DNA of 64,000 nucleotides from Octopus vulgaris (lineage: Eukaryota): positions 134,354,001 to 134,418,000 of the forward strand of contig OX597814.1 in NCBI GenBank assembly GCA_951406725.2, read 5' to 3'. The position numbers and the translations under genes were made by a program. Below, one piece after another: positions 10,541 to 64,000 of this stretch (position 1 is its first letter; every line of letters starts with the position of its first letter). The notes below the pieces were generated by a model. The model did not search any database. It was not told where the DNA came from and worked only from the letters and a program-made list of their open reading frames with translations.

Positions 10541-10694
10541 ATTGGATTCGACGGATGAAATTACAAATCAGTCAACTTCGGAAACGAAACGAGTAACTGG
10601 GGGTAAAAGTCACCCGAAGCAGCCACAAAGAAAGAAGGGCTCACAACAGGAACATAAGAATCCTTTCCGGAAACAGCGAGTGAGATAGTGTCAT

Positions 10695-20139: not shown

Positions 20140-20720
<581 letters not shown>

Positions 20721-22158: not shown

Positions 22159-25100
22159 TTAACTGGTTTCATAATCAGCCAACCAGGGAGGAGGGTGCCG
22201 TTCCCTCTGTGGTCTCAGTGCGACCCTAGGACTGGTTCCTGGTATGTTGCTGCTGGCCTCATCATCCTGTCTACTGGTGTTGTTTTCATCTTGCCCACTG
22301 CTGCTGGTCCCATCCTCTGAGGCATGGACAATCCTCCGTATATCCAAAACATGGCGTGGCATACCATCGACCGAGATGTTATTCTTTGAATTTACAGAAG
22401 TTATTGTCCCCTTTCCCCATTGTGATGTACACCGTGCATTTGGGGGTTTTATCCAAACTTCTTCCCCGACCTGCATGAAGGCGTGCTCTTCCTCTGTCCC
22501 GGGTCGCATTGATGCAGTACATGGATGCCTCCACTCGTACCTGAATATTTCCCTGTGTGGCACCGACTCCTCAGCCTGTCCTGATCTGGGCGACATATTG
22601 TACCAAAATACAGTCTCGATTGGTGAAATGTGACCCCTCTCTGCCATGGCCTTGATGGTACGATGATGCCTTTCCACCACCCCATTTCCACTTGGCCGGT
22701 ATGCCGCCCTGAAGAAGCGGTTGACCTTCCACCCATCAAGCATTTCTTTCAGCACATCCGACCGAAATGCAGTGCCATTATCCAGAAGCAGTTCATCCAC
22801 GGGGCCTCGTTCCAGGAATATCTCATTCAACACTTTCACAATTTCTTCTGCGGTCCCCGTCTTCATCTCCTTCCATATGGCCTCCATATGGTCCGCAGTC
22901 AACCATTGAGAGGTATGTCCCCTGCCGGTAGTGTGTTATGTCCACCGCCAGTCGTTTCCAGTCATGGTCCACTGGAATACTTCCCGCTTCATGTACGCCC
23001 GGGGCAGGGTCGATGGACTGGCACCTGTCACAACTGCTAACCACTCTCTGCACGCTCTGTCTTGTTACATCGGAGTCGACTTTTCTGGCTAGGAACAATG
23101 TCCTGTCCACACCCATGTGATGCATGGTATGCAGTCTCCGCAACTCCGAGTTGCTCAGGCGGCATACTGCAGCTACAGCCTGCTTCGCATCCTCTGGCAC
23201 CTGCAACCAGGCTCGCTTTACCCTGGTCAGGACGTCTGCCCTGTTCTTCTCGGAAGACACAAAGATCACGCTCAGCTTCAGATTGAACTCAGTGGTTAGT
23301 TCACGCAGTATTCCCAATCGACGCTTTACCAGCATCTCTGCAGCCCCTTTGGTCCGCACCCTCCGCTCATTGGTGATGACTGCTGTCGCCCAACCAAGTA
23401 CAGTGGCCGAATCAGTCCTGATTTCTATGGTGTGCAACCCCCACTTCAAGGCTAGGTTCATCCCCTTCAACACGGCATCCAACTCCGCTACATTGATATG
23501 ATTGCAGTCATCCGTCTTCCTGAGCCACGCTGCATCTTCCACCATGACGCCTCCCACTTCTAAGACAACCCCTGTTGCGATGCTACTGGCGTCACACCAT
23601 ACAATCCCGCTCTTTGATTTGGGAACATACCAGCTGCCCCTCACTGGGTCCTCTGCTCCTACTCTGACCAAGACTTCCTGCATCATGCCGATCGTCTTCT
23701 CCCCCACTCTATCATTCCACTTCACTCCTTCGGCTTGTCTCTTGATGAAGCTACATGCTGTCCGAAGCCAACCTGCAATCGGGTAGTGTCCCACCAGCTT
23801 CCCACACACAGAGAACAGTTCCCGTCTACTCATGCTGGCGCACAGTTCAGGGACCTCATTCCCTCGCCGGAACACCAACGCGCCGGCCTTGTCTCTCCAT
23901 AGCTTGAGGCCCAGTACAGCACCTCCCTCCATTGCCTCTGGCTTGGCGATCAGTCCAAAACTCTTCAGGTGGCCTATGACCTCCGTTGCTGGTATTACGG
24001 TTTCATCCACCAGAATGTCATCGATGTACGAATTGGTGGCCCTTTTTACTCTGTCCACCTTTCCCAGGATGGCCTTGAGAATTGTTGCCATAATCTTTGG
24101 CGCTGAATTCAGCCCGAACCCCAACCTGGTCAGACAGTACGTCCGGCCCTTATACCTGACGAGCTGGTACTTCCACAATTTCTCATCCACATGCACCTGT
24201 AGGTATGCCGACTTCAAATCAACAATCGTGGAGGCCCCTGTCATCTGCCTCCACTCTCGTAAGGTGTCTCCGCAGACATCCGTGGCCTCGCCGCCTGTAT
24301 GACATGATACGTGGTCATTCAGCTCTCTGAAGTCAAGCACTGGCCTGACCTTATGCTTTGTGGACTGTATCACCGCCATCAGTGGCAGGACTCCGCTCTC
24401 TTCTTTTCCCCAAAGGATCAATATGCCCTCCTTAATTCACCGCTCCACCTCCCCCTCGAACTCACTTTTGGCATCTCCTTTTAGAGTATGCTGATAGTAG
24501 CCCACTTTATTCTTTAACATCTGGGGCTCTCCCTTCCAGTGCCACTCCACTGTCCACCTCTTGTCATCAAAGACAGCTCGAAAGTCCTGGTCTTCAATGG
24601 TGTGCGCAGCATACTTTTCCTCACGGTTGTCGCCGGTGCATGGTCTCGCCCTACACGGTTTCCCCGCTAACCCAAATGTTACACCAGCCTCGTTAACGGT
24701 GACACCTCCCAAGCGGGTGATTGCATCCATCCCCATCACCACGTCGATCTCGTCCACCAAGTGTACTTCGCAGTGTACTTCTCTTCCGTCGACAGCTCTA
24801 ACACTGCTTCCTCCACTCCACGTCTCTGCCACTTCTGTAGTCATCAGGGTTGTTGTACAGCCCGTGTCCACAAGGGCTCGCGACATTTTCCCCTCCACCA
24901 GAATGTAGCGACGATAAGCGCGCCTCTGCTGATCCGAAGGGACAACTACCGGCGCAGTAGTCTCCCGCAGTCCGTTTCCCCGCAGACACTCGCTGGCTAT
25001 ATGCCCCGGTTCTCGACACCGGTAGCAAATCACCTCAGGCTTGGGTGACACGCAGTCACACACCATGTGTGGACCTTGGCACCGGAAAACACTGTCCTTT

Positions 25101-25247
25101 GAACGGTCGCACATGTTCTTTCTTTAGCCCCTCTCCGCTGCTCCTAGCTGGGCCACTTTTCGATGTTGCAGTCGCTGCTACCGACGTCATCCTGCTGCAC
25201 GAAACTAGTACGCGTGCCCGAGATATGATGTCCGCCATTGGCATCAT
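22159..25247 (-). pseudogene. gag (CCHC)-protease-RT-RNaseH-integrase, frameshifted
   Basis: ICYRCREPGHIASEC, ALVDTGC, VDLKSAY, LGFGLNSAP, YIDDILV, WCDASS, HINVAELDA, TDSATV, HTMHHMG...CDRCQ, LAVDITH, LLDNGTAF, GNGVVERHH. Confidence 0.9.
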
Positions 25248-31065: not shown

Positions 31066-31405
31066 TATATTTCCTTTCTTGTTTTGTTCGGTTTTTTTTT
31101 CTTCTTTTTCTTTTCTTTTTGGGGTTATTGTTAGGGGAAAAAAGCAAGTACTCAACGTGATGGAAGTATAAAGAGTCTAATGTAGATATTATATGTGGTA
31201 GCTAAGATTAGATTCTAAGCGTAAAAGATTAACAGAATTATCTGAACCATGTTGAACCAACCAAGTGTTCGGTGTCAGTAAGACCCCCAACGACAAGTTG
31301 AGTCTAACGTTACAAGATCGATCCTTCAGTACAGACAAAAATGATTTTACAGCATTTTCTCCTTCCTTTCTTACTTTCATTCGTTTTGTTGATAAAAAAA
31401 AAAGT

Positions 31406-32051
31406 GGATCTTTTCCTTTTGAACGGCAGACAATTTCTAGTTAACTAAACACTTTAAAACTTCGTATACTGGTAGAATGTGTCAAAATAAAACATTTTTT
31501 TCTCTTGGCTTTCTTGAGAAAATTGTAATTTGTTTGTTTAACGTAGTTTAATTTTTCGAATTTGAATCAATCCTATGCTCTCTTTTGAGCTAAAATCATT
31601 TGCTGCATCTAAAAACTGAGACAACATCCTGTAACTAACCCTAAACCTCCCCCCTAACCCTAACCCTAACCCTAAATTTTTTTTTTTCTTAATTGTTAAA
31701 TTAATTTAATTGTTACGCGCGTTAAAAAAACTAAAGCAATGGAATTAAATTAATTTAACAATTAAGAAAAAAAATTAGGGTTAGGGTTAGGGGAGGTTTA
31801 GGGTTAGTTACAGGATGTTGTCTCAGTTTTAGACGCAGCAAATGGTTTTAGTTGAATGGAGGTAATCGATTGGTTAAAATTGCCGAAATGCTCGGATTTT
31901 CAGACGAAATATCTTACAAACTATAGAATTTTCTCAATAAAACCAAGAGAAAATGATGTTTTATAAACCCATTCTACCAGTATACGAAGTTTAAAAGTGT
32001 TTAGTTAACTAGAAATTGTGTTGACATCTGCCGTTCAAAAGGAAAAGATCC
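31406..32051. mobile_element. 646-bp fold-back MITE with telomeric repeats
   Basis: TIR GGATCTTTTCCTTTTGAACGGCAGA, 8-bp TSD AAAAAAGT, arms pair almost to the centre; (CCCTAA)4 left and (TTAGGG)n right. Confidence 0.9.
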
Positions 32052-32654
32052 AAAAAAGTTCCTCTCATCTAAAGGACCAATTCCGAAACATCAGTTTCCA
32101 CTTGTCCCAACGGTAGAAATACCTCTCCAGCCTCAGGTACTTCGTTAAAATTTATTTAAGATAATCCTTATGTAAATAATTCTGGCTGACATGCATTCAT
32201 ATTCAATTACTTATTTACGTCTAGCAACATTTGATGAACTGATTATGTGACTAAGCCAACAAAATTTACCGAAAACACTCTCCCACGTTCTGTGCTAAAA
32301 TTATTCGTTGTTTACAACTTACTGCACGCTTTTTGCCAAAATTATGTTGTTTACAAAGTACTTAAGAAAAACGAACAGCAAGTACATAGTACTCGAAATT
32401 GCACACTGTGATTAATACACATACCAATCTCTTGCATCTTCCAGTCAAATTTTCTTTACAACTGGAGAAGTCAATTTCAGATGAGTTTATGTGCTGAAAA
32501 ATGTAGTAGAATTAACAAAAAGTCTAAAACAGGAAGAATTTACAGCTTGCATGGGAGGAATAACATGCTAAATAAAAGTACAGAAGTGAAACGATATCAC
32601 AATGTAATAAACAACAAAAATCGGTCATATTACAAAAATATGAAAATAACAATA

Positions 32655-33444: not shown

Positions 33445-33752
33445 TACAAAATTAGAAAATGGAGAAACATACTTAAATCAATCAATCATCAACCATCAGA
33501 TAATACCCAATCAATACTTTATTACACCATTACATAACAGCAAAGATATTATACATAATATATTGTAAATATAACTAGACATAGAAATATTTGTATTTTA
33601 TATTTATATTTCTATGTCTAGTTATATTTACAATATATTATGTATAATATCTTTGCTGTTATGTAATGGTGTAATAAAGTATTGATTGGGTATTATCTGA
33701 TGGTTGATGATTGATTGATTTAAGTATGTTTCTCCATTTTCTAATTTTGTAT
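33445..33752. repeat. Perfect ~145-bp inverted repeat with ~15-bp spacer inside a (TA)n-bounded insert (33275-33752)
   Basis: ACAAAATTAGAAAATGGAGAAAC...CATAGAAATAT mirrored by ATATTTCTATG...GTTTCTCCATTTTCTAATTTTGT. Confidence 0.95.
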
Positions 33753-39914: not shown

Positions 39915-42900
39915 ATGACAGGCTTCTTTCAGTTTCTGTCTACCAAATCCACTCACAAGGCTTTGGTTGGCCTGAGGCTATAGTAGAAGACACTTGCCTG
40001 AGGTGCCACACAGTGGGACTGAACCCAAAACCATGTGGTTGTGAAGCAAACTTCTTACCACACAGCCACACCTACACCTATCACAGATAGAGGATCATTA
40101 CTAAGTTGACATTATCAAGCAATAGTTATGTCTTACAGGCATTTAGGTCTTTCACTTTTGCTGACAAACACCTAAAGGTAGTGTCTCGATGAAAATACTT
40201 GTCAAAATCTTACCCCATACAGTGATGCATGGGCTTGTATCGGTTATTTACTTTTGAAAAGTACACTGTAATTAATTACATGATTCAAGTATCTCAGAAA
40301 ACTATGTTTAATAATAGTTTCAAATTTTGTCACAAGGCCAGAAATTTTGAGGGGTGGAGTTAGTCAATACCATCAACCCTAGTACTTGACTGGTACTTTA
40401 TTTTATCGACCTCAAAAAACAAAGTTAGTCATAAGCGCTGGAGAAGAGTCACTTGTTAGATTTGTCACTTGAGTGCCTCACAGTATTTGTTCCAGCTCAC
40501 TACGCTCTGAATTCAAATCCACCTTAGGTCAATGTAAACCCTTCAGGTTTGACAACAAAGTACCAGTCCAAGGTAGGGAATTGGCCGAATGATGGAACAT
40601 CGACAATGCCTTGCCATATCTATTTTAGCTCCATGTGTTCTGAGTTCAAATGCTACCAGCTGTTACAGGGAAACAGGTTTTTGGGGACCCAGCAAAAAAC
40701 GGTGATAAGTTTGAGAATCCTTATAAAGTGTGCTGGAAAGCAATACACATTTCCAAAAGATTTGGGCTCAAATAAGCAATTCGACACTGATCCTGTATTC
40801 CATGTGGAGTATTGGTTGGGTATTGTGCAGAGTTCAAACCAACTTACTCGTAATAAGACATACAGAAAATGTAATTGGTATTTTTAAGCTTTATTATAAC
40901 ATATACACCAACTTGTGTGCCAATGTTATATAAAGTTTTAAAATACCAATGATGTTTTCTGAGTTTCTTATTACAGTGTGTGCGTAGCCAGCAGAGTGAC
41001 ATAATTTGAAAGGTAAAACAATGCAAGGAAATGCATTGTGACCCGTGGTGTATGACAATATCTGATAGCCAGGTCAATACAGCGATATATATGTGGAGTT
41101 GGGTGGGTAGCTTGGTCTCTCAATCAATTGTTGTGACAGAATAGTAGTTGCTTGGTAAGTAACTATCTGAAATCATGTATTTAAACTGAGGCAGTTACAT
41201 CATGGAGAAATATTTTAGCCTTTTAATAACACAAAATTAATGTAAAAAATAAATAAGACTGAAGCAAAATAACACTAAATATATAGTGCGCGTGTTTTTA
41301 TTGGCTAAACTGGCAAAATGACCATTCCGAAATATAACAATAAACTTATATTCATTTTCCATTTATTTCTTGTGGTGTCAAAATTCTTGTTTTATAACCG
41401 CTTCCTCCACTAAAACTTATCTCCATAAAATAAGCAAGTCTGTTTCCTCTGTGGCATGTCATCTTTAGAGAATTATTGAATCTTGAGATATATCCCATTC
41501 TCAAGTGGAAATGATCCCACTGCATGGCACTTTGGGCAAGAGTCTTCTACTATAGTCTTGTGAGTGGATTTGATAGATAGAAACTGAAAGAAGCATGTCA
41601 TGTGTGTGTCTATGTCCCACCCACCCCCATCACCACTTGACAACTGGTGTTGGTGTGTTTATGTCCCCCATAATTTAGCGGTTCAGCTAAAGGTACCAAT
41701 AGAATAAGTACTAGGCTTTAAAAAAAATTAATAAGCCCTGGGGTCGATTTGTTCAACTAAAAACCCTTCAAGCACCACCTTGTGAATTGACTGGAACAAG
41801 TAAAAGATAAAAGACACTCACACACACCAAATATTCTTTGGTTCTTTTACTGCATTCAGTTACTGGATTGCAGCCATACTGTCACATTACCTTCTGGGTT
41901 TTACTTACTCATACTAATCCCAGTACTTATTTTATCGTTTTCTCTTTTTTGAATATTCAAATTATGTGTCCTAAAAGAACAAAAGCATTAATAAACGTTA
42001 AGCATAGAGATGCACAGTCACTCACAAATGCAAACATACATCAATCTGACTATATTAATGAATGGCCTAATAATACAGACTCGTCAAATCCGCACAGAAT
42101 TTCAAACTGATAAACAAATATATCACATTAAAATTCTGTTATGACTTGACAATATGTGACCAAGATTGGTGGGCAATATGGATTGTTATTTTTTTGGAAA
42201 ATTTATGATTTTTTATTAACCCTAAACCTTATCGGTCATGGGATATGCTAGAAACAACAGTTAAATCTCCCTTAAATCACACGCCTTTTCGTTGGAAAAT
42301 ATTTTCCTTTTTTTACCTAAGAGGCTTCTTCCTCTTAGTTTTTAAGTGTGTAGTGCCCCCAAAAAAACATTGTTATCTACTGATAGTTTATCAAATCTAA
42401 AAGGATTTCAATGATTAAAAGAAAGATTAGAAGTATACTGTTAAAAATAATTATTTATTTGAAAATAATATTCAAATAAGAATGATTTGGATATCAGGCC
42501 ATATAGATAAGAAAGTTAAAAAGTGAATGGAGTTGAAAAAAGAAACAGGGCACAAAAATAAATAAATAAATAATAGCTGTGTGATTAAAAAGCTTGCCTC
42601 CCAACCACATGGTCTTGGGTTCAATCCCCAATGCATAGCACACCTTGGGCAAAGTCTTGTAAGTGGATTTGGTTGGTGGAAACTGAAAGAAGCTTGATAT
42701 ATTCACGTGTGTGTATCTATGCAATTGTGTCTTTGTTTTTGTATTGTATATGTTCCCACCACTACTGCTCTGCTTAACAACCTGCTGTTGGTTTGTTTAC
42801 ATCCCCGAAGCTTAGCGATTCAGTGAAAAAGACCTATAGAATAAATACCAAGCTTAAAAATAAAATAAGTACCGGGGTCAACTCGTTCAGCTAAATCTCA

Positions 42901-49167: not shown

Positions 49168-49256
49168 CATTATTCAAAGTCATTCTCGTGTCTTATCTAA
49201 ATTCAAATGAAATGCTAGAGGCATCTTATTTATAGAAATCTTTAGGGCTACCACAA

Positions 49257-49293
<37 letters not shown>

Positions 49294-49462
49294 AAACTTT
49301 GTTTTTAATAACATTTTCGCAGGAAGAAAAGGAAAAAAACATTAAAAGTATAAAAGCTCGAGTTATTGAGGAAAATTTTGTTTATTAAGGATTTCTATAA
49401 ATAAGATGCCTCTAGCATTTCATTTGAATTTAGATAAGACAAGAGAATGACTTTGAATAATA
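49168..49462. repeat. ~77-bp inverted repeat bracketing (TA)n
   Basis: ATTATTCAAAGTCATTCTC...TTTATAGAAATC vs GATTTCTATAAA...GAGAATGACTTTGAATAAT, 1-2 mismatches. Confidence 0.92.
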
Positions 49463-49604: not shown

Positions 49605-50010
49605 CTTTTCTTTTGCTTGTTTCTGCCACCATACTGGCACATCACCTCAAAGAATTTTTAGTCAAATGTATCGACCCTCAATACTTTATTTTTTTAAATC
49701 CTGGTATTTGTTCTGTTGGCCTCTTTTGCTGAACCACTAGGTTATGGGGACATAAACACACCAGCACCAGTTGCCAAGCAGTGTGTGGGAAACAAACACA
49801 AACACACATACATATACAACACAAACACACACACACATACATATACAACAGGCTTTCTTCAGTTTCTGTCTGCCAAATCCACTCACAAGACTTTGGTTGG
49901 CCCAAGGCTGCAGTAGAAGACACTTGCCTAAGGCACTACACAGTGGGACTGAACCCCTAAACCCCAAACCATTTGGTTGTGAAACAGGCTTCTTACCACA
50001 CAGCCACAGT
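49605..50010 (-). mobile_element. SINE, 28482 family, CpG-decayed
   Basis: Reverse-complement homology. Confidence 0.75.
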
Positions 50011-50827
50011 TAAGAAAAAAATTCATTTAATTAAAATTATTGGTGCAATCAGTAGACAAACCACTCTAAATGTGTTTACAATTATATTCCTGGGATATTT
50101 TCCCTTCTCTATATTGTTGATATTCATAATAAGCTTAACTTCTACTTAGTGACTACTCAACCTCTATTTCTACATATACTGATGACTTCCAAGTTTTGCC
50201 AACTGAGAAAAACATGTTTCACTGACAAAGTCTAGAAAGTAGAAATTAGAAGTTGCAGAGAAGTGTGCATTTAACAGGATGGTTTTTCCTAAATGGACAG
50301 TAACTCCTTCTCCTATCTCTGTTATTCTTCCTTTCACTACAGACGAACTTATCTACTCTTTTATTCACTCAATTTCTCTGAATCTGCCTGTTATGCAGCT
50401 TCAATTCAGATTTCAACTCCAAATCTAAAGAGGTACAGCAGTTTTTCAGATGAAGATATCTTCGATCAGCTATTTACCCCTCATTCTACCAATAATGAAG
50501 TTCAAAGCACCCTTAAAATGACTGGAATACTTGGTTAAGCACCAATAAGAAAAATGTATAAAATATGATGTCCATTCCACATGTCTAAATTATAAGATGA
50601 ATTGATTACATTGCAATAAGACTAACATACAGGATGTTTTATTGAGTTATGCTGTGAAAAACTAAAGGATAAACATGTTCCACAATGCTCCTCTAATTTT
50701 CTACTTGCATACAAATTTTGTCTTTCTATGCAAAGTATGTGTGCAAGTGACCATCATTCAAATGCTATATTGCCCACTTCAGCGAATCCACACCATCTTT
50801 AAATGTGTATAATTTAAGATATAATTC

Positions 50828-52730
50828 ATCATCATCATCATCATCATTTAATGTCCATTTTCCATGCTGATATAGGTTAGACGGTTTAACAGGAGCTGGC
50901 CAGCTGAAGCGTCGCCCAGGCTCCAATTGTCTGTTTTGGTTAGATGCTCTTCTTGAACACCAACCACTTTATAGGATGTACTGGATGCTTTTATGTGGCA
51001 CCAGCTCAGGTGCTTTTACATGGCACGGCTAAAGGGCATCTCCCCAAGAGTTAAAGACAGATTATATGATGCCTGTGTATGTACAGCTATGCTACATGAC
51101 AGTGAAACATGGGCTATATAAAAATTTAAAAAATAAAAGTTCCTTCCCAAGCCATGCCAGGCTCATAAGGGCCAGTTTCAGTGACGTAGAAATTCCCCAC
51201 CTGGACAGGACGCTGGTCCGTTACAGGATTACTCCCTTTTGCCAGCTGAGTGGACTGGAGCAACGTGAAATGAAGTGTTTTGCTCAAGAATACAACGTAT
51301 CGCCCGGTCCAGGACTCAAAGCCACAACCTTATGATCATGAGTTCAACACCCTAACCACAAAGCCACGAGCCTCCACATGGGCTATGACTACAGAGGACA
51401 TGCAAAGGCTTGAAAGAAATGAAGCCAGCATTGCCCTGCTAGATGGATAATGTTAGTATGCATGTACAACAGAGTGTAGAGAATTTTAGAGAAAAATTGG
51501 GTATAAAAGGCATCAGATGTAGTGTGCGAGAGAGAAGACTGTGCTGGTATGGTCATATGATGCATATGGATGAGGACAGCTGTATAAAGAAGTGCTAATC
51601 TCTAATAGTGGAGGGAACCTACAGAAGGGGTAGACCCAGGAAGACATAGACAAAGAGGTGAGAAATAATCTTCAGATTTTGAGCCTTGCAGAGATGACAA
51701 GGGACCAAGGCTCCTGGCAGTTTGTTGTGCTTGAAAAATAAAATCATTACCATCCATACATACAGGCATGTCATGCCTCCCTCCCTCAGTAGAGGTCCTT
51801 GACTTGTGGGCTCGCAGGTGCTGGTGCCATGTAAAAGCACCCATGCTGGTGCCACACCTTTTTAATTTGATTTTTCCTTAAATTACACCAATTATTATAC
51901 ATATCATCATCATTGTTATTGTTTAACGTTCGTTTTCCATGCTGGCATGGGTTGGACGATTTGACTGAGGTCTGGAGAACCAGCAGCTGCACCAGGTTCC
52001 AATCTGATCTGGCAAAGTTTCTACAGCTGGATGTCCTTCCTAACACCAACCACTCTGGGAGTGTAGTGGGTGCTTTTTACATGCCACTGGCACAGGAGCC
52101 AGTCAGGCGAGCCAAGGATTGATCACATTTGGATAGTGCTTTTTACATGCCACCAGCACAGGAGCCAGTCAGGGGTCACTGGCATCGACCATGTTCAGAT
52201 GATGCATCTTACATGTCACCAGAAAAGGAGCCAGTCAGGGAGCATTGGCCACAGCTATGATTTTGGTTTTATTTGACTCAGCAGGTCTTCTCAAGCATAT
52301 CATATTGCCCAATGCATCAAGAGTACTTTTAAATGGACCAGACATGCAACACTGGCATCGGCCATGGCTGAAATCTTACTTTAGTTGCCGGGTTTTTTCA
52401 ATCACAGCATATCTCCAAAGGTCTTGGTCTCCTGTCATTGACTTTGTGAGGCCCAATGTACAAAGGTCATGCTTCACCTCCTCATCCCATGTCTTCCTGG
52501 GTCTACCTCTTCCACAGGTTCCTTCCACAGTTAGGGTGTGACATTTCCTCACACAGCTGTCCTCATCCATACGCAACACATGGCCATACCAATGCAGTCA
52601 TCTCTCTTGCACACCACTTTTGATGCTTCTTATGCCCAACTTTTCTCTCAGGATGCTCACCCTCTGTTGTGTATACACACTGGCATTACACATCTAGCAG
52701 ATCATACTGGCTTCATTTCTTTCAAGCATA
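50828..52730. mobile_element. RTE LINE fragments: 50828-51025 (-), 51030-51860 (+), 51905-52730 (-)
   Basis: MDEDSCVRKC...VEGTCGRGRPRKTW, SETWA and WYGH motifs, shared 3' UTR with (GAT)n tail. Confidence 0.85.
51118..51375 (-). mobile_element. tRNA-derived SINE (head B + tail Z) inserted in RTE coding sequence
   Basis: 11-bp TSD ACATGGGCTAT (51107-51117, 51376-51386). Core TTCTTGAGCAAAACACTTCATTTCACGTTGCTCCAGTCCACTCAGCTGGCAAAA shared with 1836. Confidence 0.88.
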
Positions 52731-55700
52731 TATTTTACTTTAATTCTTTTTTGTTTGTTTTGCATTTATTTTTGTGTTTCAAGATACCTCTATGTGGCAA
52801 CAAAGACAAATGAAGCTGATAAAAATACTTAATATTTATTTAATACTGATTTAATTAATAATAATAAAAATTAACAGTTATAATTTTAAAAATTGGCTTT
52901 TTCCCCCTTTGTGCACCGGTTCTAAAACATGTGGGCACATGTGCAAGTGCACAGTTTAATGAGAACATTGGTGTTTGAATGTTCTTCATTGAGTATAGAA
53001 ATCTTTTAAAAGCAGTTTTTCTGTGGATGTCAAAAAATGCCTTAGAGGCAAATTCAACATTCAGTTACTGGAAATTTCAAAATGGTTAAAGCTTTCTTGT
53101 TCTCTAAAGCCCGTATGCATGAGACAGTCTTGTATCAGCTCATCATTGATAGCACAGCTCTTCACTAACAGTTTGATGACAATTTTGACATCATTTCAAT
53201 GTCTATAAAACAGTATTCATTCCTATAAAAAAGGCCACTTCTTTTTCAGAACAGTGTCACGTAGAACTCAAGACTTTGTGAAAGCATTTCAGTACCTTTG
53301 AAGTTCAGGGTTCATCCAACCAGCTTATCAAAGAGTTCATACAAACAACTTGTAAATTTAACACTTACTCTGACATACATAGATAAAAATGTTCTTAGGT
53401 CACCTAAAATGTAGGTCAAGTGATATATTCTAGATACTGTTTAACCTTCAAAAGTGTTAGCCCCTTGATAGATAATTATTTTTTATCAAATTAGGTGCTT
53501 TGAATATCTTTTATTATAAATGTGCACACACAAACATATGAATATATACAAAAGTACGCATGCACGGCATATGTACTCTTAACATGATACCCAAGCAGGA
53601 TCAGCTTAACACAGTGTATGACAAGATTGTCGGATGGATTGTACAGGTACAATCTACCCAATTTCATTTAAACCAGTCATATCCAACCAAAATATTCTAC
53701 TTGTCTTATGTACAAACTGGCCAGACCTAGCCTCACACACCTACCCGACACTAAAACTTCTAAATGCTTCTAATCACATAAAAATTTCAAAACTATAAGA
53801 TAATGCATGATTAATTCAAAATAATGTGAATAGATAAGCATTATAATTTACAGAGTAATCTCTGAATGCTAAAGAATTAAAAGGTTTGTATCTACCCAAG
53901 GTTATGGTTACCCAAAATGCCACAAATTCAGACCAAACCTATAACTGTGATTGCATGCACATGAGGCAAAATAAGACAATGCAATGCTGCTGAGGATAAA
54001 TCAAAGCTAAAGCAAAGATTAGATTACCTTTTACCCTAAACTGTCAATTCAGTTTTGAATTTATTCTTAATTTCTTGAAATTATCTCCCTTCCTTGTTCA
54101 GATTTGCTTGCAACTAACGTTAGGTTTTTGCTTTCTTTCTCTGTCCACAAGGAAAATTTTAATAAATTAAAAACTTATCCTTTACTGCAATCATTAAACT
54201 CCTCTCTTACTTTGTTATCCAAATTCATGCCACTGACCCTTTTCAGTTATTTTTTTTTTTAGTGCATTTTACTTTGTGTGTGTGTGTTCATGCATAAGCA
54301 CCCAGAATAAAACCCTTTTACTTAGGATTTATGATTTTCATCAAGCATGAAAGAAAGACACGACTAAACATGAATGGTTAATGAAGCATTACATTGTTAC
54401 AAACATTAAACGAAATTCAATTAATATTTAACCAGCAACTTGGACCATTGCCCAAGATGCCAAGGAGGACATGATAAAGACAGGGAAATTTCCATGACAG
54501 TCAGCTTGTACACACCAAAGTTCAGCTTGCCCAGAGTGCCAGCAACCCCAGGGCCAGCAACCCCAGGGCCAGCCCTTGGTGATGAAGAAATAATTGTGAT
54601 GGGGTTGGACAATAACTGGCATCCATTTGCTTCTGAAAGCTTGCACAGACAAAAAGTAAATTACTTTTTCAATAATATATATATATATCATCACATTAAA
54701 CGATGATGATGATGATGATGATATATATATATATATATATATATATCATATAGTATTATAAATTTAGTTTCATAACAAGCAAATCATGTTACCAAACAGT
54801 TTTGTATTAAAAACTGTTAGGTTACATAAATTGGCTGCAATGAAACTAAACTTAAAATACTGTATAAATATATATCCATTCTACAATACTTGTTTTCCTG
54901 AGTTGTAAAACTTATTAGACTCTGTGTGTGGTGTTGAATTGGCAGAAGCATTAGGGCAGCAATTAGAGTATTTTTTCTTGCTCTCTGCTTTCAGATCCTA
55001 GTTAGGTCAATGACTTTACTTTCATCCTTTCGGGATTGACAAATAAAGTACCACTCCAGGGCCAAGGATTGGTGGTATCATGAATGTTAGAGTATCAACA
55101 GAGGTTTCCTATGATATTAGTTTTGTCTCAATGCATTTTGAGTTCAAATCCCGTGCTTTGGGATTTCAGTTTAATTTCCATTTCTCCACTTCATATGCTC
55201 TATCAAAAGAAACTAATATTTAAAAATGCTGTTTTATTTATTTATTTCACACAGGATATAAACACACAGATGTTTGCATGCAGTAGCGTAGCTAGAGTGT
55301 GTTGCAGCCTTTCTGTTTGCCGCCCCTACCACACACCCAACTACACTAGTGTTTGCATGCATATTTTCTCATTAAATGTCAGTATACTAATTAATCATTA
55401 AAATATTTGGTATTCTTTTAGAAGTTTATTGGGCTGCTTACATCCTAGAAAAATAAACAGTTCTATTACACAATGAAAAAAGAAATACATATACTGTTGT
55501 TGGTTTCTCATAGTTAACAACATACTAAACTATTTATGACATTCAGAGAACAGGAGTACTAAAACATGAAGTGGGGAAAAAAGTAGGCAGCCTAATCTAC
55601 TTCCAGTAGAATGCCAGATATTACCATACTTGATATAATTTATTCCCATAGAATCACTGAAATTGATATCAATCTCTCATTTATGTTTTTAGCATTTCTT

Positions 55701-55990
55701 TGAGGGTGATATTATAATCACACAACAAAGTCTGTATGATAGATTAGTCTTATTTATATATATATATATATTTTTAACCAGCTTTTGGATACCCAAAATT
55801 CAATAGATTATTTACTGTTAAGGATTGCCTATGATCAGTGGTATTTTGACAATGAGCCATGTCATTCCTAAAAGAATTTTATTACCCTCTGTGTTTCTCA
55901 TTAGTTTAAGTTGGGGGTGATGTGATATGAGCAACATTTAACTGCTATTTCTAGCATATCAAGTGACCACATAAAGGCTTTATATATATC

Positions 55991-56366
55991 GTGGAACTCC
56001 ATCGGTTATGATGATGAGGGTTCCAGTTGATCCGATCAATGGAACAGCCTGCTTGTGAAATTAGCGTGCAAGTGGCTGAGCATTCCACAGACACATGTAT
56101 CCTTAACGTAGTTCTTGGGGAGATTCAACATGACACAGAATGTGACAAGGCTGGCCCTTTGAAATACAGGTACAGCAGAAACAAAGAGCGAGAGAAAGTT
56201 GTGGTGAAAGAGTACAGTAGGGTTTGCCACCAACCCCTGTCAGAGCCTTGTGGAGCTTTAGGTGTTTTCACTCAGTAAACACTCACAACGCCCAGTCTGG
56301 GAATCAAAACCACAATCCTACGACTGCGAGTTCGCTGCCCTAACCACTGGGCCATTACGCCTCCAC
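55991..56366 (-). mobile_element. tRNA-derived SINE (head A + tail Y)
   Basis: 56175-56366 matches 555-735; 55991-56172 matches 1970-2151. Confidence 0.85.
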
Positions 56367-56495
56367 TATATATATATATAGTGCGGCCATGCTGGGGCAC
56401 CAACGGTGGTGCCCCAGCATGACCGCAGCCTTCGGGCTGAAATATTTTTAAAGATTTATATATATATATGCACACACACACATACATACACATAT

Positions 56496-56712
56496 AGGAA
56501 GTTAATTATATGGCCAGCCATAGAGTGACCAAAGGTTTCGCATCTAGAAAGCACTTAATCTTATCGGACGTGCCATTTATAAGGCTAAGTGCTTTACAGA
56601 TGCAAAATTATTGGTCACTCTATAACCAGCCATATGATTAACTTCCTTTGAATACATTACTACTCTAACATTTAGAATGTGCTTCTTTTTCGGATATATG
56701 ATACCCTAGCAA
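56496..56712. repeat. (TA)n-embedded hairpin element: 69-bp imperfect arms (56496-56564/56579-56647) + terminal module
   Basis: AGGAAGTTAATTATATGG...CTTAT / ATAAG...CCATATGATTAACTTCCT. Confidence 0.85.
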
Positions 56713-56892
56713 TATATATACATATATATTTATGTATTCTAAGAATACATAAGTGAGAAAAAATATTCACTCATATATTTAACAGAGCAGGCACATCAAG
56801 CATAGTGTGTAAAATATTATAGATCCATTACAGTCAATCTTAGTAGTCATTTAGGCACTGGGCATGCAAGCCAGGTGTTACATAACAGCATA

Positions 56893-57102
56893 TACATGTG
56901 AGCCGAAAGTCACACGCCAAAACATTTGACATTTTATTTATATTATTATTATTATTTTTCATTTTTCTCATCACGTGTGAGAGCATATGTACTTATCATT
57001 ATTGTATTTATTTTATTCAATTTTAGAAAAATTGAAGCATGTCTTTGACAAATCCAGAACATTTTGAACTTATTTTGTGCATGACTTTTGGCCTGTCCTG
57101 TG
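56893..57102. mobile_element. Possible Tc1-like MITE
   Basis: GCCGAAAGTCACACGCCAAAA ... TTTTGTGCATGACTTTTGGC degenerate inverted ends in TA-rich flanks. Confidence 0.4.
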
Positions 57103-57119
57103 TATGTGTGTATATATAT

Positions 57120-57303
57120 ATCATCATTTAACGTCCGTTTTCCATGCTAGCATGGGTTGGACGGTTCGACCGGGGTCTGGGAAGCCCGGAGGCTGCACCA
57201 GGCTCCAGTTTGATCCGGCAGTGTTTCTACAGCTGGATGCCCTTCCTAACGCCAACCACTCCATGAGTGTAGTGGGTGCTTTTTACGTGCCACCAGCACA
57301 GGA
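57120..57303 (-). mobile_element. RTE 3' UTR fragment
   Basis: Homology to 51905-52100. Confidence 0.8.
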
Positions 57304-57311
57304 ATAATACG

Positions 57312-57366
<55 letters not shown>

Positions 57367-57624
57367 AGAGAGAGAGAGAGAGCGAGAGGGATACATATAG
57401 TGTGTGTGTCTGTGTATAAAATTCTTTTTGGGAATTAGTTCAGAAAATCTATAAATAACAGCATGGTAAATATTGGGTTGAAAAACACTTCTGGACAGAA
57501 AATATCGAAGGCTGCCCCAAAAATGCGTGTGCCTGCCTTATAGTACTCGTGTACACAAATAAACATGCACTCTTAGACTGAGAAAGTTTCTGAATGTACT
57601 TATTTTGAGCATGATGTTTGGCCC

Positions 57625-58245
57625 GCACATACATACACACACAGACACACAATACACACATGCACAGGAATGTACACATACCTAACACACACAACTACAT
57701 GCACATACATACGCAAACATACACAAGAAAGCACATATACCTCCACACACAATCCCACATACACACACACTACACACATGAATGCACACATACCTCCTAC
57801 ACACAACACATACTCATACATACACACAATTACACATACATGGGCATATATACACACAAACATACACGCACACGCAGGAACGCACATATAACTCCACACA
57901 TATACACACTCACATACACACACTCACATACACACACTCACACACACACGCACATATGCACGCACTACACAAAAACACACAACATATACATATACGAATA
58001 CACATACACACACATACTTTAAACTGCCGGTCAAACACCTTTCTACTCACCATTCCTCTAAGCACATGTGAAGAGACACACCACTACACAAAAGACTGCC
58101 ACTCCTGTTACCATGCTGCTGAATTCTTCCTACAACATTAAGAGACACAAAGTTCATTCACACACACATATAAACAACCAACACCACACACACAACACAT
58201 ACACACACACACATGTTATTACACATGCACATACCCACACATACC
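57625..58245. repeat. Degenerate CA/TA-rich low-complexity tract
   Basis: Direct reading. Confidence 0.85.
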
Positions 58246-58379
58246 TCCTTCTCTTACACTCTCCTGTCTTAGAAAGAACTTTTCCTTCACCCATTCCCTT
58301 CTGGTCATTTCAAAATGTAACCACATGTGAATCATTGGCAATTTTTTCCTCTGTCTTCCTTTCTATTGGACTTTCCTCT

Positions 58380-58414
58380 GTTTCTGAAGAAGAGCTTTGC
58401 TCGAAACATTAAAC
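58380..58414 (+). ncRNA. Minimal type-I hammerhead ribozyme motif in a Penelope-like terminal region (~58250-58520)
   Basis: GTTT-CTGAAGA-A-GAGC-TTT-GCTC-GAAA-CATT-AAAC: CUGANGA and GAAA cores, 4-bp stem II, GTTT/AAAC stem I. Confidence 0.65.
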
Positions 58415-58548
58415 CACCTTTCTTTCCTTCCCTGAGCATCTGCTAATACTTTACCTGTACCATGTCCTTGTGCTATTTTTTTTCCTTTTTGTGTTTGTTC
58501 TTCGTTTTTTTTTTTATTTACTATTTTTTATATATTTATATATATATT

Positions 58549-58851
58549 AAAATGGGAAGGCTAGTTTATGGGATTACCTTAGGTTTCCCATCCACAAAGG
58601 GTTTAGTTTTATGATGTATTGTCAGATCCCAAAAGCCTGCTGCCCCTATGGAGAGGGAATGCTCTCCTCCATATTTTTAAGAGGTCATGGGCCAACAGGT
58701 TTTTGGGGATCTGACAATACACCATAAAACTAACCCTTTGTGGATGGGAAACTTATGGTAATCCCATAAACCAGCCTTCCCCATTTTTTAGATGATGACT
58801 GCTCTACATCTTATTGTGTGCTTCTTTCAGATTTATGTTTTTTATAAACAA
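58549..58851. repeat. (TA)n-embedded hairpin element: ~90-bp arms (58549-58640/58695-58787) + terminal module
   Basis: AAAATGGGAAGGCTAGTTTATGGGATTACC...GATCCC mirrored. Second small hairpin TATGGAG...CTCCATA in the loop. Confidence 0.9.
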
Positions 58852-59015
58852 TATATATATATATATATATAATGTAATTCTGTTTTGGAATTGGTTCTGG
58901 AAAATACATACAAAGCTTTAAATAATATGGTAAATATTGGGTCGAAAAAGCCTTCTGGACATAAAAAGTTTAAGGCTACCCCAACAATGTGTGTGTATGT
59001 GTGTGTGTGTTGATC

Positions 59016-59017
<2 letters not shown>

Positions 59018-59051
<34 letters not shown>

Positions 59052-59505
59052 TTAATGTCCGCTTTCCATGCTAGCATGGGTTGGACGGTTCAACTGGGGT
59101 CTGAGGAGCCCGAAGGCTGCACCAGGCCAGTCAGATCTGGCAGTGTTTCTACAGCTGGATGCCCTTCCTAACGCCAACCACTCCGAGAGTGTAGTGGGTG
59201 ATTTTATGTGCCACCAACACAGTGCCAGGCGAGGCTGGCAGACGGCCACGCTCGGATGGTGTTTTTATGTGCCACCGACACAGGTGCCAGATGAGGCTGG
59301 CGAACAGCCACGATCGGATGGTGTTTGTTACGTGCCCACAGCACGGAGGCCAGTCGATGCGGTACTGGCTATGGCCACGTTCGGATGGTTTTCTTGTATG
59401 CCACCGGCACTGGTACCACAAAGATACAAATTCCATTGATGTTCATCTATTTTGATTTGATTTGATTTTGATTTTGATTTTCACTTGCCTCAACAGGTCT
59501 TCGTG
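59018..59505 (-). mobile_element. RTE 3' UTR with ~57-60-bp tandem subrepeats
   Basis: (CAT)n tail; four diverged GGTG(C/T)TTTTA(C/T)GTGCCACC units. Confidence 0.8.
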
Positions 59506-60947
59506 AATCAAAAGTGCTAGAACAGGTAGCCTCCCAAACATCATCTGATATTTCAGTAAGGTAGGATACTTAATGAGGTCAAAAACCCCTAAAACTGTTA
59601 GGAGTCAGACACTCTTAACATCTCAAAAACCACTGCTTGAAAAATATAATTTAACAATAGATCATGGTATTTCAGTGCCTCATTTTGTTCAGCTGTGGAT
59701 GAACCACCTTTACTGTAGCATTTCAGACATATGATAGAGCATATAAGCCATCTGCTTCTAAACCAAGGACAAAGAGTGAGTCTATTGTGGCTCTTTCCAT
59801 CATCACTGGAAAATCCATTAGTTCCAGACTTGAGAGGATATTTACCCTAATCATTAGGTGATGGCGACCATCACAACCCACATTCAGTTGACATCATAAT
59901 CTTTAAAGACATCCAGAGCTGAGAAATTTACAACAAAATATCATTCTCCAACATACATCGGTTCCCACTTTGAGGGTGATGAAAATGTGGAGTTCATATG
60001 GGATAAGTAAACTACCAGTGTTTGGCAAAGTTTCAACCCAGTCTCCAGAAAATTTTAACTGTCACAGAAAGTAAGTAGCACAAAGTGATCAATAAGAACG
60101 TGTTTTCACTGCAAATTGTTCTAAACTCTGAGTCAATTTTCCCCACTCTGGAACTAACAGCTCAAGTTCTACCACAACTGTTGAGTTTCATCCACCTCCC
60201 TGTTAGAGCTATACTCTATTGAAAAAAAAAAGAGTATGTCTTCAAAAGAAGAGCAAGCATGAATTGAAGAAAGGAAGCAGGGGAGAGATAGTGATCTACA
60301 CTCATTGCTGCTAATCTTAACAAGACATTATTTTACAATATCTCTATTAGGTTACAAATGCCATATGTTGATTTTCCTTTATTTTATCTCAGTAATATTT
60401 CTCATTTACGCTAAACACATATTTCAAAAGAAATATCTTTCAAGAACATATGCATAACATTAGTTCCTCAAACTCTAAGTCATTACTATGTAATACTTTG
60501 AATACTTTTTGCAAGAGAATTCTTTCTTTTATATATTATATGAAATTTTCAAATTTTATCCAGTTTTACAAGTGCTCTGTAATGAAACTCTCAGCCTTAC
60601 AGTCAATGACACAGCTTTTCAGCTATAGATAAAATAATATAAATACTCTGTATATTAAAAGTTCTATTTCTCTCGTTTGTATAACCTATCCCATGTATAC
60701 ATATATATATATATAAAATACAAAATACACAATTATATCTTGAGATCGCTAGTAATAACAATACTCAAAATATAAAACAGACTGGAGTTGTAGTGCTCCA
60801 AAAGAGCTATATTCCACTTCTTAATCTGAGCAGAGGCAATGCGAGCAGTAACTAAAGGAACATTACTAAAATCCACACAGAAAGGTTAAATACATACATA
60901 TATTCATTTATATCTACAGAACAGATATAAAGTCTGACATTTAAAAA

Positions 60948-61210
60948 TCATCATCATCATCATTTAGCGTCCGCTTTCCATGCTAGCATGGGTTGGACGG
61001 TTCAACTGGGGTCTGGGAAGCCTGAAGGCTGCACCAGGCCCAGTCTGATCTGGCAGTGTTTCTACGGCTGGATGCCCTTCCTAACACCAACCACTCCGTG
61101 AGTGTAGTGGGTGCTTTTTACGTGCCACCCGCACAGGTGCCAGATGGGGCTGGCAAACGGCCATGGACGGATGGTGCTTTTTACGTGCCACCGGCACGGG
61201 GGCCAGGCAA
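60948..61210 (-). mobile_element. RTE 3' UTR fragment
   Basis: Homology to 59018-59300. Confidence 0.8.
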
Positions 61211-61317
61211 ATAAATAAACATCATATAACATGTATAAATATATAAGAATCAGTGTTGCATACAAAACACAGTGAATTTATGCTTAAAATCATAAAACAT
61301 TTGGTAAATTAAAAATT

Positions 61318-61690
61318 TGGGATAATAAAATGGCCCTGCTCTATCTGTAGAAAAGGTGTAGATAGAAACTCTATAAGATGTACCCAGTGTAAGCTATGGA
61401 CACATAAGTGGTGCAGCAATATCAAAGGAAGGCTAACTGGGAAGATAGTTTTTGTATGTGGCAGATGCTTAGGAGCAATAAACGCTGAAAATGTGCAGAA
61501 AACAACTTCTACCACATTCCAGGGAGAAAAACTAGAAGTAGTTGATAGATTCCGTTACCTAGGTGACCAAGTTAGTAGCAGGGGTGGGTGCACTGAAAGT
61601 GTAGCTGCTAGAATAAGAATAGCCTGGGCAAAGTTCAGAGAGCTCTTACCTCTGCTGGTGACAAAAGGCCTCTTGCTCAAAGTAAAAGGT
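61318..61690 (+). pseudogene. RTE reverse transcriptase fragment with embedded PHD-type finger
   Basis: WPCSICRKGVDRNSIRCTQCKLWTHKWC...FVCGRC in frame with LEVVDRFRYLGD...VAARIRIAWAKFREL. Confidence 0.85.
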
Positions 61691-62594
61691 GTGGTGATGA
61701 TGATGAGTTCACCTATGTTGCTATTGTTGCTTTATAGCTCTGCAATGTTGCAATTGCTTATATGTTTTATAGCTCCACTATGTAAGAAAACGGATCTACT
61801 AAAGGTGATGAAAGTCTCAACTCTTTGTACTGCATAAGCATGCACAAAATTTTATCAACTGAATGCAAGATTTCAGATATAGTTTACAGTAGTGAATTGA
61901 AGTATATAGAGGAGCCAAGAATAGGTTCAAAACTGTCATTAGCCAGGATACAAATAGAATATGTTTTATACATCGAAGAAAATTCTGGAATAGATCAGAA
62001 AGGAGAAGTCAAAGAAAACTAAGCAAGATAGTCTTGAGATATGACAAGTTCTAAGGTGCAGTGTTTGTTGACACTGTGCCTAGGAGCAAACTAGCTGATG
62101 GGTTTAAGAAAACATTACATAAACAAAATTTAGAATTAAAATAACAGAATGCAGGCAAATCCATTAAATACAAATTAGAATGCCATAAACATTTAAGAAC
62201 CACCATCCTTCTACATTGATAGCAGAGTTTACAAAACTAACCATATGGGTAAACTGAAAAAGAAGGAATATGGAATACCATGTGAGGTCATTGACATGAA
62301 GTATAGGAATGCTACCAAAACCTATGCAGAAGCTGTTGAATCAAAGGAGCCTCTATGTGGTCACAATCTACTAGAAGTAACAGTACACTACCACCTTACA
62401 AAAAAGGTCATGTTTGATTATGTGATCATAAACACACTTTCAGAAAATAAAATAGACATAATGAAATGCCTTTTAATTATAAGTCTACTTGATCAGAGCT
62501 GATTTGAAGACTAAACCATGGCACATTGAAGAAACAGACCATAAATTATCTAAAATAATCAAACAATACTTCTCTGAGTACAACAAGAGAGCAG

Positions 62595-63022
62595 CACCTA
62601 TATTCGACCAAAATGCCTTGAGAAGACTCAGCAAGCCAAGTGAGATCGTAGTCATGGTCGATGTGTTGCATAACTGGCCCGTTTAAAAGCCCCCTTCAAT
62701 CGTTGGGCAATATGGTGTGCTTGTGAAGACCTGTTGAACCGAGTGAAATCATAGTTGTGGCCAATGCCAGTGCTGCCTGACTGACACATAAAAACACCGT
62801 TCAAGCGTGGCCAATGCCTGTGCTGCCTGCCTGACTCCCATACCAGTGGCACGTAAAAGCACTCACTACACTCTCGAAATGGTTGACGTTAAGAAGGGCA
62901 TCCAGCTGTAGAAACCTTACCACATCAGATTGGAGCCTGGTGCAGCCTCCTGGTTTGCCAGTTCTCACTCAAACTGTCCAACCCATGCCAGCATGGAAAG
63001 CAGACATTAAACGATGATGATG
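62595..63022 (+). mobile_element. RTE 3' UTR
   Basis: Homology to 39545-39902; GATGATGAT tail. Confidence 0.8.
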
Positions 63023-63264
63023 CCAAATACAGGACAGATCAGTAATCAACATCAAAATAAAAAAATCCTTTCTGCACACCTACACAATCTAACACACAGG
63101 TAAATCACTGAAGCAGAAACTGACTACATTGAATACAAAAGTATGTTTGGAGTAACAATTCACACTTCCATCTCCACACTCCATGATAATTATAATTATA
63201 ATACTAATGACATAGAACTACACAATGGTTAAAATGCAATGGAATACAATGTAATTGTTAGGTG

Positions 63265-63540
63265 TTGTGGGCAGGGCATTGAACTCATGCTTGCTAGATC
63301 AATGGTTTGATTCCTGGACTAGGCAGTGTGTTGTATTCTTAAGCAAAACACTTCATTTCACATTGCTCTGTAACTGTTTTCACATCTAACATGTGGCATA
63401 CTTTTGCAGGTGCACAAGCTATGTTGGTGTAAGAGAGGGAGTGAGCTTATGTAAATACAAACATTTGATCACTACAAGCAGATCATCTCTGTGGTTGTTC
63501 AAGCAATTGCAGAGCTGCCATCCATTGACTAATGACAGGC
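63265..63540 (+). mobile_element. Old SINE (head-B-like core + different tail)
   Basis: GGTTTGATTCC box B, then TTCTTAAGCAAAACACTTCATTTCACATTGCTC. Confidence 0.55.
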
Positions 63541-63564
63541 AAATCCATAATATAGATACTCTTA

Positions 63565-63754
63565 TTCTTTACTCTTTTACTTGTTTCAGTCATTTGACTG
63601 CGGCCATGCTGGAGCACCGCCTTTTAGTCGAGCAAATCGACCCCGGGACTTATTCTTTGTAAGCCCAGTACTTATTCTATCGGTGAACCGCTAGGTGATG
63701 GGGACGTTAACCACCAGCATCGGTTTGTCAAGCAATGCTAGGGGGCAAACACAG

Positions 63755-63803
<49 letters not shown>

Positions 63804-63968
63804 TACGACAGGCTTCTTTCAGTTTCCGTCTACCAAATCCACTCACAAGGCATTGGTCGGCCCGGGGCTATAGCAGAAGACACTTGCCCAAGATGCCACG
63901 CAGTGGGATGAACCCGGAACCATGTGGTTGGTTAGCAAGCTACTTACCACACAGCCACTCCTGTGCCT
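63565..63968 (-). mobile_element. Young SINE, 28482 family
   Basis: Full-length reverse-complement homology, CpGs retained. Confidence 0.85.
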
Positions 63969-64000
63969 ATGTATAATTTGGAGTAACCCAATAGTGAAGT

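What the first reader, a model, noticed from the sequence alone, without database searches (positions are those of the whole stretch)
56496..58851. Two (TA)n-embedded hairpin elements with unrelated arms but a shared ~60-nt terminal module
Seen: 56496-56712 and 58549-58851 both read (TA)n | long hairpin | module | CAATATATA(TA)n. The modules align: ACTACTCTAACATTTAGAATGTGCTTCTTTTTCGGATATATG...CAATAT vs ACTGCTCTACATCTTATTGTGTGCTTCTTTCAGATTTATG...CAATAT. The 69-bp and ~90-bp hairpin arms show no similarity that I can see. There is no ORF, no pol III box, and no TIR at both ends. Inference: a family of small non-autonomous, microsatellite-targeted elements defined by a conserved end plus a variable fold-back. 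They may be mobilised by a Penelope-like RT, since PLEs are known to leave inverted terminal segments. If transcribed they would give long hairpin RNA (Dicer/ADAR substrates).
Basis: partly seen in the sequence, partly recalled or inferred. Interest (0 to 1): 0.72.

Follow-up and report, generated by a model that had tools for sequence, protein, structure and literature searches.

The report
Folded-back Penelope retrotransposon ends
The two hairpins are short back-to-back copies of the ends of two related Penelope-type jumping genes that land in TA repeats, a known and abundant layout; their arms are related after all (decayed remains of a predicted self-cutting RNA), and the one-sided 60-base tail likely marks where copying starts.

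Summary
Both hairpins and the shared module are real, but the arms are related. Each element is the 3' end of a protein-coding Penelope-like retrotransposon, inserted twice head to head in a microsatellite, with the ~55-60-nt tail on one arm only. Longer copies in the genome run on into a reverse transcriptase plus GIY-YIG frame with the motifs of the Hydra clade, close to the published Hydra-1_Obim. The arms align over a type I hammerhead motif: complete in 9 of 53 copies examined, decayed in both window copies. Fold-back points differ from copy to copy, so these are separate truncated insertions, not one small non-autonomous family. A young related family shows the rule cleanly: 17 of 17 two-ended insertions carry exactly one tail, the other arm stops at an internal TA-rich site, and either arm can be the longer. 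That fits priming from both nicked target strands better than snap-back copying (inferred). A third such stub, from another family, lies at 54748-54920. The layout is published, and this scan has reported it before on other DNA of this and other genomes. Ordinary; low interest.

The parts
56496..56712 (+). Element 1: two-armed stub of Hydra-type PLE family 1
   Evidence: family 1 ends join an RT/GIY-YIG frame in L156, L157, L044, L052
56496..56564 (-). Element 1 inverted, tailless arm, ending at the internal TA-rich site
56565..56647 (+). Element 1 sense arm; hammerhead remnant 56565-56621 lacking the 5' strand of stem I, with core changes
   Evidence: alignment A1; descriptor finds no complete motif here
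56648..56712 (+). Element 1 tail (the 'module'); damaged copy of the small tail hairpin at 56659-56680
58542..58851 (+). Element 2: two-armed stub of Hydra-type PLE family 2 (left end 58542-58549, blurred by the TA run)
   Evidence: near full-length parent L061:5587-8665
58542..58662 (-). Element 2 inverted, tailless arm
   Evidence: the junction overlaps the sense arm by 10 nt
58653..58793 (+). Element 2 sense arm; hammerhead remnant 58706-58765 with the core G8 changed to A and a mismatched stem III
58794..58851 (+). Element 2 tail (the 'module'), followed by (TA)n
54748..54920 (+). Third stub of the same build from another, likely Hydra-type family (arms 54748-54803/54810-54865, tail to about 54920)
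   Evidence: 2 of 25 loci (L174, L186) lie next to a GIY-YIG C-terminus

Best explanation
Each hairpin is a short, 5'-truncated insertion of a Hydra-clade Penelope-like retrotransposon in which the element's 3' end stands twice, head to head, in a microsatellite, likely because the element's enzyme primed one DNA copy from each nicked strand of the TA repeat. Shown: arm plus tail is the 3' end of a 3-kb RT/GIY-YIG element; one arm ends at the tail end and the other at a fixed internal TA-rich site 54-69 nt upstream; 5' breaks vary; the arm holds a hammerhead motif. Inferred: the GIY-YIG nuclease nicks both strands of (TA)n, reverse transcription starts at two fixed points on the sense RNA (tail end and internal site), both copies stop early, often near the hammerhead region, and are joined end to end. 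The two window elements share the module because their parent families are related. They have decayed since insertion and are likely inert.
For: Dispersed copies: 89 and 83 matches from 40 scored of 1888 and 938 candidates; 144 and 12 exact tail-motif matches, reversed control 0. Parent of element 2: L061 has an inverted tailless arm, a broken RT/GIY-YIG frame, then arm plus tail, with (TA)n on both sides. Family 1 ends join the same kind of frame. An intact related 717-aa frame has RWK, DKT, CxCx5C, no CCHH, CxxC and CxH, as PMC8557442 section 11 defines Hydra; its model (pLDDT 93.5) matches reverse transcriptases, TERT ranked 2nd. The L061 RT core matches Hydra-1_Obim at 67 of 93 residues (counted by eye). 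Hammerhead descriptor: 7 of 23 family 2 and 2 of 30 family 1 copies, 0 of 2120 shuffles. Tailless arm ends 53-55 nt from the end in 19 of 22 family 2 copies. Young family C: 28 of 62 clusters have both orientations, all 28 with 3' ends outward and 28 different spacings; 17 of 17 insertions with both ends in view have exactly one tail; of 15 with a visible junction the tailless arm is longer in 7, the tailed arm in 4, about equal in 4, and in L240 the arms do not overlap at all. Arms of one locus share more non-CpG variants than arms of different loci (1.34 vs 0.41 in family 2, 2.91 vs 1.29 in family 1). In vitro, another PLE cuts and extends both target strands and starts at two sites that bound the tail (PMC11167929).
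Against: The two-primer mechanism is inferred from insertion shapes, mostly of family C, not of the two old families; deletions after insertion could produce some unequal arms. Shared variants between arms also fit conversion between arms or subfamily structure. No intact frame of family 1 or 2 was found; the DKT and CxCx5C motifs were not read cleanly in family 1 copies. No tree with reference PLE clades was built. Pfam gives no RT hit and only a sub-threshold GIY-YIG hit. Five family 2 copies fold back at nearly the same palindromic point (about 180 nt from the end), which a re-amplified stub could also give. In the tail-motif sample only 12 of 30 family 2 and 8 of 12 family 1 loci had an adjacent inverted arm at the strict threshold. 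Tails (54-69 nt) are longer than the published 30-40 bp.
Confidence: 0.9

Rival explanations
1. The stubs are a non-autonomous, retrozyme-like or MITE-like family that is itself transcribed and re-copied by a Penelope enzyme.
For: Many short copies; breaks cluster 150-200 nt from the end; five family 2 copies share a fold-back point within 1 nt; retrozymes derived from pLTRs are reported (bioRxiv 10.64898/2026.07.22.740005, passages).
Against: 19 distinct junction pairs among 22 family 2 copies even in a sample biased toward the query; continuous breaks in the motif-picked sample; the 8 short family C pairs all differ in spacing; no sister of either window element above 80% over its whole length (only 40 candidates scored each); no tandem arrays of the stub seen among these loci.
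Confidence: 0.06
2. Same elements, but the inversion arises by self-priming (snap-back), for example on an antisense template, as proposed for rotifer Penelope elements.
For: Several junctions are perfect or near-perfect palindromes; PMC3846280 Discussion (passage) argues for this from such palindromes; 4 of 15 family C junctions have arms equal within 5 nt.
Against: Snap-back from the tail-bearing strand cannot give a tailless arm that reaches further into the element, seen in 7 of 15 (one of them in a low-complexity tract), nor non-overlapping arms (L240); snap-back from the tailless strand cannot supply the tail.
Confidence: 0.2
3. Helentron/HINE-type non-autonomous DNA elements with asymmetric inverted repeats and a small 3' hairpin (features recalled, not from a call).
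For: One inverted repeat at the very end, the other about 60 nt inside, followed by a small hairpin.
Against: Long copies encode RT and GIY-YIG, not Rep/helicase; arms are long, variable and carry hammerheads; the tail can sit on either arm.
Confidence: 0.01
4. Host hairpin-RNA genes kept by selection as Dicer or ADAR substrates.
For: Very stable predicted folds.
Against: Arms differ mostly by private changes (369 private vs 39 shared non-CpG in 29 family 2 copies), at nearly the between-locus rate (12.7 vs 14.2 per pair); no excess of A>G or T>C between the arms of the window copies; no Rfam family at its gathering score.
Confidence: 0.04

Closest known systems
Hydra clade of C-terminal EN+ Penelope-like elements, including Hydra-1_Obim of Octopus bimaculoides (Craig et al. 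2021, PMC8557442; passages, sections 11 and 20, supplement part 2 and search hits read)
   Same: RT plus C-terminal GIY-YIG, RWK, DKT, CxCx5C, no CCHH, (TA)n targets, type I hammerhead near the 3' end, length under about 3 kb; family 2 RT core 67 of 93 residues identical to Hydra-1_Obim (by eye).
   Different: Hammerhead flanks differ from the Hydra-1_Obim entry (vs 42), so these are other families; Hydra-1_Obim is listed with 'no pLTR'; family 2 has a long N/S/T-rich insert inside the GIY-YIG motif.
Complex PLE insertions: inverted 5'-truncated copy plus one-sided tail (PMC8557442 section 6 passage; PMC3846280 passages; PMC8969392 passage)
   Same: Inverted repeat flanking the unit, tail on one end only and on either end, strong 5' truncation.
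   Different: Tail is 54-69 nt rather than 30-40 bp; here both copies are so short that only a hairpin remains; no target duplication could be read inside the TA runs.
PAc, Poseidon of Anolis carolinensis (Frangieh et al. 2024, PMC11167929; passages and part 2 of 2 of the main text read)
   Same: Tail bounded by two fixed ends; AT-rich target; hammerhead upstream.
   Different: Other clade; in family C the tail ends before the frame's start rather than inside it; here the internal end resembles the target (TA-rich), whereas PAc starts at a site not homologous to the cut DNA.
Animal non-LTR retrozymes (bioRxiv 10.64898/2026.07.22.740005; passages)
   Same: Short, non-coding, hammerhead-bearing, pLTR-related.
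   Different: Retrozymes are tandem units of fixed length; these are head-to-head with variable breaks.

Membership tests
EN+ Penelope-like elements | Single frame with RT and C-terminal GIY-YIG | tested here: met
   Parent copies L061, L142, L144, L148 (family 2), L156, L157 (family 1) align along the intact 717-aa family C frame, whose model matches RTs including TERT; GIY-YIG Pfam hit only E 0.014
EN+ Penelope-like elements | Inverted 5'-truncated copy with a tail on one end | tested here: met
EN+ Penelope-like elements | Direct pLTR from partial tandem copies | tested here: inconclusive
   Seen in family C (L159, L160, L163); not shown for families 1 and 2
Hydra clade | RWK motif, DKG changed to DKT, divergent RT4 | tested here: met
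   Families 2 and C; family 1 copies do not cover RWK or DKT
Hydra clade | CxCx5C linker, no CCHH, CxxC and CxH around E and N | tested here: met
   Families 2 and C; family 1 shows CxxC and CxH, linker decayed
Hydra clade | Insertion into (TA)n | tested here: met
   Flanks; some old copies have mixed TA/CA/TG flanks
Hydra clade | Canonical hammerhead motif near the 3' end | tested here: met
   9 of 53 old copies, 0 of 2120 shuffles; the two window copies fail the descriptor; one of the 9 and family C read C at core position 4; cleavage untested
Hydra clade | Groups with Hydra in an RT phylogeny | not tested
   No reference set was available as a tool input; only a by-eye comparison with Hydra-1_Obim
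Non-autonomous family / retrozyme | Fixed unit with a shared junction, amplified as such | tested here: not met
Helentron/HINE (recalled features) | Rep/helicase parent, short fixed asymmetric inverted repeats | tested here: not met
   Parents encode RT/GIY-YIG; arm lengths vary

The most novel reading that the evidence does not exclude
Hydra elements integrate by two-sided priming: one enzyme complex copies the same sense RNA from both nicked strands of (TA)n, starting at the tail end and at an internal TA box just before a small tail hairpin, and joins the two cDNAs. Every head-to-head PLE hairpin would then be a record of two reverse-transcription events, against the published antisense self-priming idea, and the octopus-type genome would hold thousands of ready-made hairpins as a by-product.
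Probability: 0.55. Interest if true: 0.45.

Novelty: new member of a known kind. Interest (0 to 1): 0.2.

Why it matters
As a finding it mainly corrects annotation: such hairpins are retrotransposon ends, not hairpin-RNA genes or a new MITE family. The by-product of value is the insertion rule in the young related family (one tail per insertion, a fixed internal second end, either arm longer), which gives a genomic test of how Penelope-like elements make their inverted ends, a step PMC8557442 and PMC11167929 call unresolved.

Tried and rejected
Rfam scan of 50000-64000: only microsatellite-driven or weak miRNA matches below gathering score. Pfam found nothing on 9 fragments of families 1/2-type frames, no RT on the intact frame and nothing relevant on 12 of the 120 listed homologues; sequence searches of solved structures gave only chance-level hits. 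A DNA search with the family C end returned nothing because very common words are skipped; a short pattern then gave 2273 matches. Expression: no RNA holder listed on record; laying 4 of 24 runs (RNA only guessed, contigs only) showed family-level cover, one contig identical to 58608-58782 at depth 3.4, and no listed letter changes inside the hairpin; this is no evidence for or against transcription or editing. An old tandem array with ~1.9-kb period was considered and dropped: the spaced repeats are a dispersed SINE-like repeat and the hairpins have copies on many contigs. A splice-acceptor reading of the module and a hammerhead inside the family 1 tail were considered from the sequence and dropped: the tail ends at the TA run and family 2 lacks that core. 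Tail hairpin: predicted in all 5 family 1 and 5 family 2 copies folded, but these were picked by a motif containing it; not recovered clearly in the third family or family C, so no claim of conservation beyond families 1 and 2. In one search four of the 24 family 1 'inverted arms' are likely low-complexity or unrelated alignments, so that count was not used. Three paper searches found no paper that names these octopus-type stubs or twin priming for PLEs; the library lacks most subscription papers and Repbase. Supplement of PMC8557442: only part 2 of 59 and search hits were seen; supplements of the other papers were not opened.

Full report
Observation. The modules align. The claim of unrelated arms fails: arm against arm scores above all 1000 shuffles on both sides, and ten copies of the two families align across arm and tail without a break. 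A third hairpin of the same build sits at 54748-54865.

Copies. The window lies in a 2.8-Gb genome, likely an octopus (inferred from closeness to Hydra-1_Obim; species not determined). Each element has many dispersed relatives: 89 and 83 matches from 40 scored of 1888 and 938 candidates. After removing 7 duplicate loci I examined 23 family 2 and 30 family 1 loci, the window's own included. They keep sharp ends at microsatellites. That sample is biased toward hairpins like the query, so I drew a second one by an exact tail motif alone: 144 matches for family 2 and 12 for family 1, reversed controls 0. In the first 30 and all 12 of these, the sense arm starts 63-1042 and 70-820 nt from the end; 12 of 30 and 8 of 12 have an adjacent inverted arm at the strict threshold, and several more have short or gapped ones ending at the same point.

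Parents. L061:5587-8665 is a 3.1-kb element: (TA)n, inverted tailless arm, broken RT/GIY-YIG frame, arm plus tail, (TA)n. Family 1 ends continue into the same kind of frame, 67% identical in DNA to the L061 copy over two stretches (L156). A protein search of the genome led to a young related family C with intact 717-aa frames. Its model (mean pLDDT 93.5, 118 sequences) matches reverse transcriptases, with TERT ranked second and several telomerases in the top 15. Families 2 and C show RWK, DKT, CxCx5C, no CCHH, CxxC and CxH, the marks of the Hydra clade in PMC8557442. That paper lists an octopus member, Hydra-1_Obim, whose RT core matches L061 at 67 of 93 residues by eye. I built no tree, and Pfam does not recognise these RTs.

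Hammerhead. A type I descriptor in the format of that paper's table hits 7 of 23 family 2 and 2 of 30 family 1 copies and family C, but none of 2120 shuffles and neither window copy. Element 1 is cut at the start of the core and has lost the 5' strand of stem I; element 2 has G8 changed to A in both arms. G8 is needed for cleavage in PAc, so both are likely inactive.

Insertion rule. In family 2 the tailless arm stops 53-55 nt from the end in 19 of 22 copies, at an internal TA-rich site, with 19 distinct junction pairs. Family C has 2273 motif matches. The first 100 form 62 clusters, 28 with both orientations, all with 3' ends outward and all with different spacings, 8 of them under 200 nt. 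All 17 have one tail, and the other arm stops 65-71 nt from the end (L254 has a further tail fragment beyond its TA run). Of 15 with a visible junction the tailless arm is longer by more than 5 nt in 7, the tailed arm in 4, and they are equal within 5 nt in 4; in L240 the arms do not overlap. Arms of one locus share more non-CpG variants than arms of different loci (1.34 vs 0.41 in 29 family 2 copies; 2.91 vs 1.29 in 11 family 1 copies), but most differences are private, as expected for neutral decay after insertion.

Mechanism. Shown: anatomy, parentage, fixed outer ends, variable inner breaks. Inferred: the nuclease nicks both strands of (TA)n, and two cDNAs start at the tail end and at the internal site, stop early and are joined. 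This agrees with PAc, which cuts and extends both strands and starts at two sites bounding the tail (PMC11167929). Self-priming on an antisense template (PMC3846280) explains the palindromic junctions but not tailless arms that reach further than tailed ones. Deletion after insertion and conversion between arms remain possible contributors.

Known and new. The inverted truncated copy with a one-sided tail is described for PLEs, and Hydra elements in (TA)n are known from octopus. The two families appear not to be Hydra-1_Obim itself (different hammerhead flanks). Earlier notes of this scan reach the same reading on other DNA; they are unchecked and add no support. Three paper searches found no account of twin priming in PLEs, within the library's limits. 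Expression and editing stay open (searches were uninformative). Verdict: real, ordinary, new members of a known kind; interest 0.2.

Noticed in passing
window 54748-54920: Third two-armed stub from another family; sisters carry a hammerhead-like core and 2 of 25 loci lie next to a GIY-YIG C-terminus.
   Followed up: partly
L061:7490-8050; also L140, L144, L148, L167: Family 2 has an N/S/T-rich low-complexity insert of very variable length (about 40 codons in L148, about 185 in L061, over 300 in L140 and L144) between the two halves of the GIY-YIG motif; N-rich inserts at other positions are known from rotifer Penelope elements, and Hydra-1_Obim has a short one here.
   Followed up: partly
L160 (family C 3' end): The young intact family's hammerhead core has C in place of U at position 4, with perfect stems I and III; activity untested.
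   Followed up: no
L160 (family C frame): The RT catalytic motif reads YKDD in family C against YRDD in families 1 and 2.
   Followed up: no
window 58380-58420: Hammerhead-like motif of another, abundant repeat whose end abuts the TA run that holds element 2.
   Followed up: partly
window 20150-20695: Remnant of a Hydra-like GIY-YIG region split by an (ATAG)n run.
   Followed up: partly
window 33447-33749: 303-nt near-perfect (97%) AT-rich palindrome followed by (TA)n, no hammerhead core found.
   Followed up: no
window 31405-32052, 49169-49461, 40850-40974: Further long inverted repeats (75%, 97% and 79%); the second has MITE-like 76-nt terminal repeats around a TA run.
   Followed up: no
window 22162-25123 and 8977-10571 (minus strand): Frames that look like LTR-retrotransposon gag/pol; 2897-3631 looks like a mariner-type transposase (names from recall).
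   Followed up: no
G000:C1:57208853-57222579: Seven family C ends at 2.58-kb spacing, five in one orientation and two in the other: a long tandem plus inverted array.
   Followed up: no
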